Shown: positions 35,214 through 37,531 of the stretch, in pieces
Layout: every line of letters starts with the position of its first letter
How positions within the stretch are numbered: the stretch's first letter is position 1
Source of the DNA: Escherichia coli
Lineage (GTDB): Bacteria; Pseudomonadota; Gammaproteobacteria; Enterobacterales; Enterobacteriaceae
Reading direction: 5' to 3' (one strand)
NCBI RefSeq assembly: GCF_003790525.1
Contig: NZ_CP033635.1
Length of the DNA stretch: 64,000 bases
The notes under the pieces: model-generated
What the model was told of the DNA's origin: nothing
The model's database searches: none
What the model saw: only the letters and a program-made list of their open reading frames with translations
Program-made: the position numbers and the translations under genes

Positions 35214-35259
35214 GAGTAAAAATGACTCGCTACCCGCAGCAGGCGAGTCATTTTTACTC
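35214..35259. promoter_or_regulatory. ZraR enhancer: perfect 17-bp inverted repeats
   Basis: GAGTAAAAATGACTCGC - 12 nt - GCGAGTCATTTTTACTC, midway between the divergent sigma-54 promoters. Confidence 0.75.
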
Positions 35260-35773: not shown

Positions 35774-36469
35774 TCAGAACGTTTTCTCGTTGGGTTGCCA
35801 GCGACAGAAATCAGAGTTTGCCACCAACAGTAATTGCGAACCTTCGGGCGCTTCCAGCCATGCCACGCTGACATCAACAGAAGAGCGGCTCTGGCGGCGC
35901 TCGATATGCGCTATCGCCTGCGAATCTAAATCAGGTTTAATGGTTTGCCCTTCGCAGGTGGTCACAGTCTGCTCCATCGCATGCCAGCGCCCCTGGCGCA
36001 GCACGACTCTCCCCTGACGTAAGGCATCGCTAATCTGGCGGATCTGATCAGCACGATAACGGTATAAATCGATTTGGTCGTTAGAAAGCTGCTGCTTTTC
36101 CCCATCGGATTCACGTTGCATAAAGCTCAGATCGCCGCGATCGTCAAAACGCGCGCGAATGTTCACCGGCGGTTTGCTGTAAACATTGATATTGATGAGC
36201 GTGAGGTTATCGCCCTGCCAGCGATACTCTCGCGTTGTGGTATCGCCACTGCGCCACGGGCTAAACACGGCAAGCAGATGCACATTATCGCCGCTGTCTT
36301 TTCGCCAGATGCGTACCGCGCCCTGGTCTTCAGCAAATCCACTGGCGGTAAAGGGAGGAAGTGAAGAGTTGTGACTACAGGCAGTGAGAAACAGAGCGCC
36401 AGCCAGCATCAATGATCGACGCCAGAAAGACAAAAGGGGTGAAACCACCCCTTCGTTAAAACTGTTCAC
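35774..36469 (-). CDS. yjaH: DUF1481 putative lipoprotein YjaH
   Basis: Lipoprotein signal with LTAC lipobox; GTG start at 36469 chosen from the remembered K-12 hupA-yjaH spacing (ORF track extends to 36475). Confidence 0.7.
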   Translation of the reverse strand: MNSFNEGVVSPLLSFWRRSLMLAGALFLTACSHNSSLPPFTASGFAEDQGAVRIWRKDSGDNVHLLAVFSPWRSGDTTTREYRWQGDNLTLININVYSKPPVNIRARFDDRGDLSFMQRESDGEKQQLSNDQIDLYRYRADQIRQISDALRQGRVVLRQGRWHAMEQTVTTCEGQTIKPDLDSQAIAHIERRQSRSSVDVSVAWLEAPEGSQLLLVANSDFCRWQPNEKTF

Positions 36470-36481
36470 TGCCACGCAATC

Positions 36482-36754
36482 TTACTTAACTGCGTCTTTC
36501 AGTGCCTTGCCAGAAACAAATGCCGGTACGTTAGCTGCGGCAATTTTGATTTCTTTACCGGTCTGCGGGTTGCGGCCAGTACGCTCAGCGCGGTGGTTCA
36601 CTTTGAAGGTACCGAAACCAACCAGTTGTACAGCATCGCCTTCTTTCAGAGACTCAGTAATTGCAGCCAGAGTGGACTCCAGAGCAGCTTTAGCCTGGGT
36701 TTTGGACAGTTCTGCTTTCTCTGCAATTACATCAATCAGTTGAGTCTTGTTCAT
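36482..36754 (-). CDS. hupA: DNA-binding protein HU-alpha
   Basis: 90 aa; [90 protein letters not shown]. Confidence 0.95.
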
Positions 36755-36940
36755 AAGTTATCCTTACAATGTGTTTATCGCTTGCTAAGCATCGAGTGCG
36801 ACGGAAATGCCAGAATAGCACTCTCCTGCATACACGCACCGATAGCCACTTTTTTTCGCCCCCCAAATGTAGACCAGACGGGGGGCGAAAGGGAAGACTC
36901 CAGGTACGACAAATCAGGCGTTAAATCACGTTTTCTGGTC

Positions 36941-37531
36941 TTATTGCTGAAAAATTATACCAATATTGCTCTCACCCGCCTCACGCAGGTCTGCCCTAAG
37001 GCCTTTTATCAGCTCGATATCGCGTTCTTCGCACTCAGCTAAAAGTCGGAATATTTCCCACTGAATGTCCCATTCTTGCTCTACAGCTGGGTTTTCTTTG
37101 AGCTCTTCATCGCTCATTTCGCGACCAGCCTGAGTCATTTCCAGCATCGCAACGGTCGTGATGGAGGTCTTACTCACTTCCACCGCGTGTTCGAGCGTTT
37201 CGCCACTTAAACGCGAATGGACCAGTTCACTTAACGCCACGCATGCATCGATTGCCGGATAAACGCCGTACAGATCGAAATCGTCGGCTGAAGGAATCGC
37301 TTCTTCAAATTTCTCCAGTTGGCTGTCGAAATTTACTTTTGCGTCTTTGACGGTCAGCGTTTCCCAGATGAGATCGAGAATGCGGCGGTAAATTTGCCCA
37401 TCACCAAAACCGGTTTGCTGGCAGAACATGGCGTAATTGGGGTACATGCGTTCGCATAAGCAAGCCATGAAAGTGACGTGCTGCCAGCTTTCCAGGCGCT
37501 CCAGACGCAGATGAATTGGGTTTTGTAACAT
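36941..37531 (-). CDS. yjaG: DUF416 family protein YjaG
   Basis: 196 aa, ATG confirmed; conserved position between nfi and hupA. Confidence 0.8.
   Translation of the reverse strand: MLQNPIHLRLERLESWQHVTFMACLCERMYPNYAMFCQQTGFGDGQIYRRILDLIWETLTVKDAKVNFDSQLEKFEEAIPSADDFDLYGVYPAIDACVALSELVHSRLSGETLEHAVEVSKTSITTVAMLEMTQAGREMSDEELKENPAVEQEWDIQWEIFRLLAECEERDIELIKGLRADLREAGESNIGIIFQQ

What the first reader, a model, noticed from the sequence alone, without database searches (positions are those of the whole stretch)
36846..36882. 11-bp GC stem-loop between yjaG and hupA with a flanking T-tract on the wrong side for termination
TTTCGCCCCCC-N15-GGGGGGCGAAA is a long perfect inverted repeat in the yjaG-hupA intergenic region. 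Both genes are on the minus strand, and on that strand the hairpin is followed by an A-run rather than a U-run, so it does not fit a standard intrinsic terminator for yjaG. It lies upstream of the hupA promoter region. Its function (protein-binding site, RNA structure or REP-like element) is not evident from sequence.
Basis: seen in the sequence. Interest (0 to 1): 0.2.

Follow-up and report, generated by a model that had tools for sequence, protein, structure and literature searches.

The report
Palindrome inside the hupA promoter
The GC-rich hairpin between yjaG and hupA is real, but it is not a terminator: it sits inside the promoter of the HU-alpha gene, where a 1994 study already described a cruciform-forming inverted repeat, so it is largely ordinary and known.

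Summary
The inverted repeat exists: TTTCGCCCCCC-N15-GGGGGGCGAAA, 11 perfect pairs. Its true position is 36854-36890, 8 nt from the coordinates given. It folds far better than shuffled sequence, is single-copy in E. coli and matches no Rfam family.

It is not a yjaG terminator. No U-tract follows it on either strand, and published Term-seq data list no 3' end there.

It overlaps the hupA promoter rather than lying upstream of it. The best sigma-70 match is TTCCCT-18-TACATT (TTCACA in many genera). That puts the -35 against the left arm, the -10 in the loop and the predicted start in the G-run. The loop is 99.9% identical across 73 non-Escherichia species.

A held paper relays Kohno et al. 1994: the hupA promoter overlaps an inverted repeat that can form a cruciform, and HU uses it for autorepression.

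Comparative data weaken a conserved structural role:
- covariation is not significant;
- 60 of 79 sequences have at least one non-Watson-Crick position in the 8-bp GC core;
- only 7 of 38 variants fold clearly better than shuffles.

The hupA start site could not be retrieved. Verdict: a known promoter element of low interest.

The parts
36880..36890 (-). Left (5') arm of the palindrome, TTTCGCCCCCC. In the proposed promoter it forms most of the 18-bp spacer just downstream of the -35.
   Evidence: The C6 run is 96% identical to E. coli across 73 non-Escherichia species. The outer TTTCG is only 63% identical, about the same as yjaG third codon positions at 59%.
36865..36879 (-). 15-nt loop, GTCTGGTCTACATTT. 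This is the most conserved piece of the element.
   Evidence: 99.9% identity across 73 non-Escherichia species. TCTACATTT also survives in a distant AT-rich genome, L085, whose YjaG is only 59% identical.
36866..36871 (-). Candidate -10 hexamer TACATT (4 of 6 matches to TATAAT), in the 3' part of the loop.
   Evidence: Together with the -35 candidate it is the top PWM hit in E. coli (7.03) and has the best median score over 79 sequences. It is the top hit (10.81) in Erwinia, Pantoea, Dickeya, Pectobacterium, Rahnella and Serratia. Inference only; no start-site data were obtained.
36890..36895 (-). Candidate -35 hexamer. It is TTCCCT in E. coli and TTCACA (5 of 6) in many other genera. It shares one T with the left arm.
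36854..36864 (-). Right (3') arm, GGGGGGCGAAA. It would be the G-rich discriminator and predicted start region of the candidate promoter (predicted +1 about 36860-36857, MG1655 about 4,200,175-178).
   Evidence: 93% identity. Uncompensated G-to-A or G-to-T changes occur in many genera. The start position is inferred from the spacing to TACATT.
36850..36856 (-). A7 run after the hairpin (T7 on the plus strand). It overlaps the last three pairs of the stem. It is either early transcribed sequence or the -10 of the alternative promoter (AAAAGT, 36853-36848).
   Evidence: 98% identity. The alternative promoter TGGTCT-17-AAAAGT scores 4.05.
36812..36820 (-). TGcTATTCT, an extended -10-like motif in Escherichia. 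It is unlikely to be the conserved promoter.
   Evidence: The key A is T in most genera. This block is the least conserved in the downstream part of the spacer, at 76% identity. Dickeya carries an insertion of about 125 bp and Pectobacterium one of 17 nt exactly here.
36910..36934 (-). Conserved upstream block AAAACGTGATTTAACGCCTGATTTG, a possible activator or repressor site (its left half resembles a CRP half-site).
   Evidence: Conserved across Enterobacterales. Which factor binds was not tested. CRP and Fis regulation of hupA is from my memory of Claret and Rouviere-Yaniv 1996.
36755..36784 (-). The 30 nt of the hupA leader next to the AUG. In Salmonella this is the target of the ProQ-dependent sRNA RaiZ. 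It helps explain why the leader is nearly invariant.
   Evidence: PMC5391140. Columns 132-187 are 98.5% identical.
36941..36943 (-). yjaG stop codon. It lies 50 nt upstream of the hairpin, with no canonical terminator between it and hupA.

Best explanation
The palindrome is a DNA element built into the hupA (HU-alpha) promoter. It is not an RNA terminator for yjaG. Inferred layout: the -35 (TTCCCT; TTCACA in relatives) abuts the left arm. The left arm plus the first 8 nt of the loop form the 18-bp spacer. The invariant hexamer TACATT in the loop is the -10. The G-run of the right arm is the discriminator and start region, and the A7 run is early transcribed sequence. As ordinary duplex DNA the promoter fires. 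If negative supercoiling drives the repeat out as a cruciform, the -10 ends up in a single-stranded loop and the -35 and start site are displaced at the junction, so RNA polymerase cannot use the promoter. HU binds four-way junctions preferentially (established knowledge) and constrains supercoils. High HU would therefore favour the extruded, inactive form and give negative autoregulation of hupA. This is the model of Kohno et al. 1994 as relayed by a held paper. Shown here: the repeat, its stability in E. coli, its single-copy status, the lack of terminator features, and the extreme conservation of the loop and right side. Inferred: the exact -35, -10 and +1; that this repeat is Kohno's repeat; and cruciform extrusion in vivo.
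For: Literature: PMC3969353, citing Kohno et al. 1994 (J Biochem 115:1113), says the E. coli hupA promoter overlaps a large inverted repeat able to form a cruciform, that HU facilitates its formation, and that this sterically blocks the promoter domains. Uniqueness: this is the only substantial inverted repeat in the 186-bp spacer, and RNA folding extends it into an imperfect palindrome of about 95 nt. Promoter placement: TTCCCT-18-TACATT is the best sigma-70 PWM hit in E. coli and has the best median over 79 sequences. TTCACA-18-TACATT scores 10.81 and is the clear top hit in six other Enterobacterales genera. Conservation: loop 99.9%, A-run 98%, C6 run 96% and G6CG 93% identical, against 59% at yjaG third codon positions. 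TCTACATTT persists in a distant genome that has lost the G/C arms. Promoter activity: a fragment covering almost the whole spacer drives lacZ (PMC6047807). Transcription of the downstream site: insertions at the TATTCT site in Dickeya and Pectobacterium and a 3' end at 4,200,251-253 argue that the region downstream of the hairpin is transcribed leader. Pairing: one compensatory C:G to A:T change in Rahnella and a Hafnia-like genome. Stability: the E. coli DNA hairpin is -14 kcal/mol, z -4.5.
Against: I could not read Kohno 1990 or 1994, and I could not retrieve any hupA start-site data. The promoter placement, and the identification of this repeat with Kohno's, are therefore inferences. My own unverified memory is of a mapped start about 87 nt upstream of the ATG (about 4,200,194). 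That would favour the weaker alternative promoter TGGTCT-17-AAAAGT, which still overlaps the palindrome. Base pairing is not maintained: 79.1% of cells pair against 78.6% in shuffles (80 of 500 shuffles as high). 60 of 79 sequences have at least one non-Watson-Crick position in the 8-bp GC core, and only 8 have the perfect 11 bp. Only 7 of 38 variants fold with z of -2 or lower, and Klebsiella, Salmonella and Kluyvera fold no better than shuffles. A 15-nt loop makes extrusion costly. The hupB upstream region has no comparable palindrome.
Confidence: 0.45

Rival explanations
1. The sequence is part of the hupA promoter, but the symmetry is incidental. The C-rich spacer and the G-rich discriminator are each conserved for their own effect on promoter melting. 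GC-rich blocks around the -10 make open-complex formation depend on supercoiling, ppGpp/DksA and initiating NTP, as at fis, tyrT and rrn promoters. No hairpin or cruciform ever forms. The perfect 11-bp stem in E. coli is one drift substitution away from the 10/11 form (TTCCG) seen in Citrobacter and Klebsiella relatives.
For: There is no significant covariation. Uncompensated mismatches occur in most species. Hairpin stability is no better than shuffles in most genera, although the primary sequence is nearly invariant. The outer left arm evolves at about the neutral rate, 63% against 59%. The loop, not the stem, is the most conserved part. hupA mRNA accumulates almost only in exponential phase (PMC5391140), as expected for a growth-rate-controlled promoter.
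Against: The published work, as relayed, attributes autoregulation to the cruciform. The C6 run in a promoter spacer is 96% conserved with no known sequence-specific role for it. There is one compensatory change. The E. coli stem is far more stable than chance.
Confidence: 0.35
2. An RNA hairpin at the 3' end of yjaG transcripts. It would act as a non-canonical, U-tract-less terminator or as a barrier to 3' exonucleases that stabilises yjaG mRNA after Rho-dependent termination or processing.
For: It lies 50 nt after the yjaG stop codon, with no other terminator in the spacer. The RNA stem is very stable at -27.3 kcal/mol.
Against: An A7 run, not a U run, follows it. The 15-nt loop is atypical for terminators. 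Adams et al. 2021 list no Term-seq 3' end between 4,199,800 and 4,200,250 in three conditions and no Rho-termination region there. The yjaG-side arm is the less conserved one and the stem is degraded in most genera. Loop invariance is not explained.
Confidence: 0.08
3. A palindromic operator for a dimeric DNA-binding protein, meaning a repressor or activator of hupA other than HU, that recognises the two arms or the invariant loop sequence in duplex DNA.
For: The dyad symmetry and the near-absolute conservation of the 15-bp centre and flanks. hupA is reported to be regulated by CRP and Fis (my memory of Claret and Rouviere-Yaniv 1996) and to be influenced by RstA.
Against: The arms are homopolymer G/C runs about 26 bp apart centre to centre, unlike known operators. 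The centre itself is not symmetric. By eye I found no convincing CRP or Fis match over the hairpin. Arm mismatches are tolerated.
Confidence: 0.05

Closest known systems
Inverted repeat / cruciform in the E. coli hupA promoter (Kohno et al. 1990, 1994, as summarised in PMC3969353)
   Same: Same gene, same promoter region, an inverted repeat with cruciform potential overlapping the promoter. The organism is E. coli and the spacer is identical to K-12.
   Different: I could not read the primary papers, so I cannot confirm that their repeat has exactly these arms. It might be the longer imperfect palindrome of about 95 bp centred on them. My comparative data show that the pairing is not conserved outside a few species.
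Intrinsic (Rho-independent) terminator
   Same: A GC-rich perfect stem in an intergenic region downstream of a stop codon.
   Different: No 3' U-tract on either strand, since the T-run is on the 5' side. The loop is 15 nt. No mapped 3' end. The real hupA terminator at 36454-36433 and the lon terminator upstream of hupB show the canonical form for contrast.
REP/BIME and ERIC dispersed palindromic repeats
   Same: An extragenic palindrome in an enterobacterial intergenic region.
   Different: Single copy: one place per genome in 5420 of 5426 E. coli genomes. By contrast, the ERIC-like insert found in the Dickeya hupA leader has a median of 8 places per E. coli genome.
Supercoiling- and stringent-sensitive promoters with GC-rich discriminators (fis, tyrT, rrn P1)
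   Same: A G/C-rich block between the -10 and +1, a sub-optimal spacer length (18 bp), and growth-phase-dependent expression.
   Different: Here the G-run is mirrored by a C-run in the spacer to give a palindrome. No ppGpp, DksA or supercoiling data for hupA were examined.
77-bp inverted repeat upstream of the Porphyromonas gingivalis capsule operon, bound by HU PG0121 (PMC3969353)
   Same: An inverted repeat at a promoter or leader, proposed to be regulated through HU binding to a cruciform.
   Different: A much longer repeat, in an unrelated organism and locus, with no sequence similarity.

Membership tests
Intrinsic terminator | GC-rich stem-loop | tested here: met
   11-bp perfect stem with 8 G:C pairs.
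Intrinsic terminator | U-rich tract immediately 3' of the stem on the transcribed strand | tested here: not met
   The minus strand is followed by AAAAAAAGTGG and the plus strand by AAAGGGAAG. The terminator scan finds nothing here.
Intrinsic terminator | RNA 3' ends mapped at the site | tested here: not met
   No 3' end between 4,199,800 and 4,200,250 in three conditions, and no Rho region there, in Adams et al. 2021 supplementary files 1-3. Low yjaG expression could hide weak ends.
REP/BIME or other dispersed repeat | Many copies per genome sharing a consensus | tested here: not met
   Median of 1 place per genome, always at yjaG-hupA.
hupA promoter cruciform element (Kohno 1994) | An inverted repeat overlapping the hupA promoter in E. 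coli | tested here: met
   It is the only substantial inverted repeat in the 186-bp yjaG-hupA spacer. It overlaps both upstream sigma-70 candidates. Literature statement. The exact identity with the published repeat could not be checked.
hupA promoter cruciform element (Kohno 1994) | Extrudes as a cruciform under negative supercoiling or HU, and represses transcription | not testable with these tools
   Only single-strand folding energies are available: DNA -14 and -13.3 kcal/mol for the two strands.
Sigma-70 promoter | -35 and -10 hexamers with 16-18 bp spacing | tested here: inconclusive
   TTCCCT-18-TACATT is the best PWM hit and is conserved. However, it fails the stricter consensus scan, which requires 9 of 12 matches.
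Sigma-70 promoter | A mapped transcription start at the right distance | not tested
   No start-site data were retrievable. Adams et al.'s filtering rule implies that a Thomason 2015 start site lies between the yjaG stop and 4,200,251.
Conserved structured RNA (Rfam families or a new one) | A match to a covariance model, or covariation supporting the stem | tested here: not met
   Only chance-level Rfam hits, E 3.5-8.9. Covariation is not above the shuffles.

The most novel reading that the evidence does not exclude
The perfect palindrome is a recent, lineage-restricted refinement. It is found in Escherichia spp., one Citrobacter amalonaticus-like species, Enterobacter soli and one MAG (8 of 79 sequences). 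It would turn an ordinary, deeply conserved hupA promoter into a DNA-structure switch: the -10 hexamer sits in the loop of a cruciform, so promoter activity reads out superhelical density and HU level directly. On this reading HU autorepression through this site exists in E. coli but not in Klebsiella or Salmonella, where the stem is broken.
Probability: 0.2. Interest if true: 0.45.

Novelty: already known. Interest (0 to 1): 0.15.

Why it matters
HU is among the most abundant nucleoid proteins, and how the cell sets its level is still only sketchily understood. If the palindrome really works as a cruciform switch with the -10 element in its loop, it would be one of very few natural promoters controlled by DNA secondary structure. 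The comparative data here point to a clean test, because E. coli has a perfect stem while Klebsiella and Salmonella have broken ones. As it stands, the element is a previously described feature of a well-studied promoter. The practical value of this check is to stop it being annotated as a terminator, a REP element or a new RNA.

Tried and rejected
**Terminator.** Rejected. There is no U-tract, no scan hit and no Term-seq 3' end.

**Known RNA family.** The Rfam E-value search gave only chance hits.

**REP-like repeat.** Rejected, because the element is single copy.

**Conserved RNA or DNA stem.**
- The covariation count on 38 distinct variants is not above the shuffles.
- Fold z-scores are weak in most genera.

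**TATTCT as the hupA -10 (my first guess).**
- The key A is present in Escherichia and only one other sequence (L078).
- The site tolerates a 125-bp and a 17-nt insertion in other genera.

**CRP or Fis sites over the hairpin.** Inspection by eye found nothing convincing. I did not pursue it.

**Second small inverted repeat.** AGACCAGA at the yjaG stop codon is complementary to TCTGGTCT in the loop. The yjaG-side arm is not conserved, so I treat it as chance.

**hupB comparison.** There is no similar palindrome there, only the canonical lon terminator.

**hupA start site.**
- Kohno 1990 and 1994 and Thomason 2015 are not held.
- Supplements of Kim 2012, Ettwiller 2016, Conway 2014, Dar and Sorek 2018, Choe 2022 and the Nanopore paper gave nothing.
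- A literal sequence search of the paper library found nothing.
- The Smirnov 2017 appendix search missed the oligo table, and I then spent the last supplement look-up on the wrong part.
- The 110-nt hupA-5' RNA of Stein et al. does not fix the start.

**More distant YjaG loci.** L086, L092 and L093 lack an adjacent hupA, and the spacer in L091 is unalignable.

Full report
**Observation.** The window is E. coli: 100% identical to strain SMS-3-5 over 1.2 kb, and present in 5425 of 5426 complete genomes.
- The genes nfi, yjaG (37531..36941), hupA (36754..36482) and yjaH all lie on the minus strand.
- The 186-bp yjaG-hupA spacer is identical to K-12 MG1655. The mapping is MG1655 coordinate = 4,237,035 minus window coordinate.
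- The inverted repeat is real but shifted from the reported position. Its arms are 36854-36864 and 36880-36890, 11 perfect pairs with 15 nt between them.
- In the sense of yjaG and hupA it reads TTTCGCCCCCC-GTCTGGTCTACATTT-GGGGGGCGAAA and runs on into an A7 tract.
- As RNA it folds at -27.3 kcal/mol (sense strand) and -25.6 kcal/mol (other strand), z about -4. As DNA it folds at about -14 kcal/mol, z about -4.4.
- Perfect repeats of this size are about 27 times more frequent in the window than a Markov model predicts, 7 against 0.26.

**What it is not.**
- Neither strand has a U-run after the stem. The terminator scan reports only the genuine hupA terminator at 36454-36433.
- Adams et al. 2021 list no Term-seq 3' end between 4,199,800 and 4,200,250 in three growth conditions, and no Rho-termination region there. 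The nearest 3' ends are 4,200,251/253 in the hupA leader, 4,200,389, and 4,200,605 at the hupA terminator.
- Rfam gives only chance-level matches.
- The 66-nt element occurs once per genome in 5420 of 5426 E. coli genomes, so it is not REP-like.

**Literature.** PMC3969353 summarises Kohno et al. 1990 and 1994. HU negatively regulates hupA. The hupA promoter overlaps a large inverted repeat that can form a cruciform. HU is proposed to promote extrusion, which sterically blocks the promoter domains. The primary papers are not held. This is the only substantial inverted repeat in the spacer, and folding extends it to an imperfect palindrome of about 95 nt. I therefore infer that it is, or is the core of, Kohno's repeat. 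A fragment covering nearly the whole spacer drives lacZ (PMC6047807). The 30 nt next to the AUG are the target of the ProQ-dependent sRNA RaiZ in Salmonella (PMC5391140).

**Comparative analysis.** I collected yjaG loci from 80 Enterobacteriaceae genomes and from Erwinia, Pantoea, Dickeya, Pectobacterium, Rahnella, a Hafnia-like genome, Serratia and two distant lineages.
- The spacer is 186 bp in 72 of the 78 genomes where it could be measured, and 185-187 bp in the remaining six.
- Mean identity to E. coli across 73 non-Escherichia species:

| Block | Identity |
|---|---|
| yjaG-proximal 45 nt | 82% |
| Outer left arm (TTTCG) | 63% |
| C6 run | 96% |
| Loop | 99.9% |
| G6CG | 93% |
| A-run | 98% |
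| Next 32 nt | 99% |
| TATTCT block | 76% |
| Rest of the leader | 98.5% |
| yjaG third codon positions (neutral proxy) | 59% |

- So the loop and everything downstream of it are under very strong constraint, while the outer left arm is close to neutral.
- In the distant AT-rich genome L085 the G/C arms are gone but TCTACATTT remains.

**Where the promoter is.** I could not obtain any hupA start-site data, so this section rests on inference.
- A simple sigma-70 PWM ranks TTCCCT-18-TACATT first in E. coli (7.03) and first by median over 79 sequences.
- In Erwinia, Pantoea, Dickeya, Pectobacterium, Rahnella and Serratia the same site reads TTCACA-18-TACATT. It scores 10.81 and is far ahead of every alternative.
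- This places the -35 against the left arm, the -10 in the loop, and the predicted start in the G-run (window about 36860-36857).
- A weaker alternative, TGGTCT-17-AAAAGT (4.05), also lies inside the palindrome. It would fit my unverified memory of a start about 87 nt upstream of the ATG.
- The TGcTATTCT motif further downstream is unlikely to be the conserved promoter. Its key A is present in Escherichia and only one other sequence (L078). Dickeya has an ERIC-like repeat of about 125 bp inserted exactly there, with a median of 8 copies per E. coli genome. Pectobacterium has a 17-nt insertion at the same point. This behaviour is expected of a transcribed leader, not of a -10 element.

**Is the pairing itself selected?** Only weakly, if at all.
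- On 38 distinct variants, 79.1% of cells pair against 78.6% after shuffling (80 of 500 shuffles as high). Double changes are few.
- Only 8 of 79 sequences have the perfect 11 bp. 19 have an intact 8-bp GC core and 60 have at least one non-Watson-Crick position in it. The usual change is an uncompensated G-to-A in the right arm.
- Only 7 of 38 variants fold with z of -2 or lower. Klebsiella, Salmonella and Kluyvera fold no better than shuffled sequence.
- In favour of pairing: the C6 run is conserved with no other obvious reason, and there is one compensatory C:G to A:T change in Rahnella and the Hafnia-like genome.

**Verdict.** The element belongs to the hupA promoter, not to yjaG termination.
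- For E. coli the best available mechanism is the published one: a supercoiling- and HU-dependent cruciform that sequesters the promoter, giving autorepression (confidence 0.45).
- The main rival is that the symmetry is incidental, and that the GC-rich spacer and discriminator are conserved for ordinary promoter kinetics (0.35).
- An RNA role at the yjaG 3' end (0.08) and a protein operator (0.05) are unlikely.
- The feature is already known, and interest is low.
- The one new angle is that the perfect stem is restricted to a few lineages, which makes the 1994 model easy to test by swapping arms between species.

Noticed in passing
window 35214-35259: A 17-bp perfect inverted repeat, GAGTAAAAATGACTCGC-N12-GCGAGTCATTTTTACTC, in the divergent zraS-zraP intergenic region. 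It is the longest perfect repeat in the window. From memory this is probably the ZraR (HydG) enhancer-binding site; I did not check.
   Followed up: no
window 36433-36475: The hupA intrinsic terminator (36454-36433; Term-seq 3' end 4,200,605) lies inside the annotated 5' end of the yjaH coding sequence (start 36475). Either yjaH depends on read-through of this terminator, or its start codon is annotated too far upstream.
   Followed up: no
window 36782-36784 (MG1655 4,200,251-253): Adams et al. 2021 list low-abundance Term-seq 3' ends inside the hupA 5' leader, 28-30 nt before the AUG, at the edge of the region that pairs with RaiZ in Salmonella. They could reflect attenuation or processing.
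   Followed up: partly
L082 about 2215-2345 (Dickeya fangzhongdai) and L087 (Pectobacterium): A dispersed repeat of about 125 bp, ERIC-like, with a median of 8 places per E. coli genome, is inserted in the hupA leader of Dickeya. Pectobacterium has a 17-nt insertion at the same point, which could be a remnant of the same insertion.
   Followed up: partly
window 36755-36940 and loci L002-L081: The yjaG-hupA spacer is 186 bp in 72 of 78 Enterobacteriaceae genomes (185-187 bp in the other six), and the 130 nt before the hupA AUG are almost invariant. That is far more conserved than synonymous sites of hupA itself, 82%. RaiZ pairing explains only about 30 nt of this.
   Followed up: partly
window 36812-36820: In Escherichia (and one other sequence, L078) a T-to-A change creates an extended -10-like motif, TGcTATTCT. 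In RNA it lies in what looks like the variable loop of a small conserved hairpin (AGUGC/GCAUU). This may be a second, lineage-specific hupA promoter.
   Followed up: partly
window 36934-36941 versus 36871-36878: An 8-bp inverted repeat. AGACCAGA, overlapping the yjaG stop codon, is complementary to TCTGGTCT in the hairpin loop. The yjaG-side arm is not conserved, so it is probably chance.
   Followed up: yes
L094 369-412 (MG1655 hupB upstream): The paralogous hupB gene is preceded by a canonical lon terminator (stem followed by T7) and has no promoter palindrome like the one at hupA. If HU autoregulates both genes, it does not do so through the same kind of element.
   Followed up: partly
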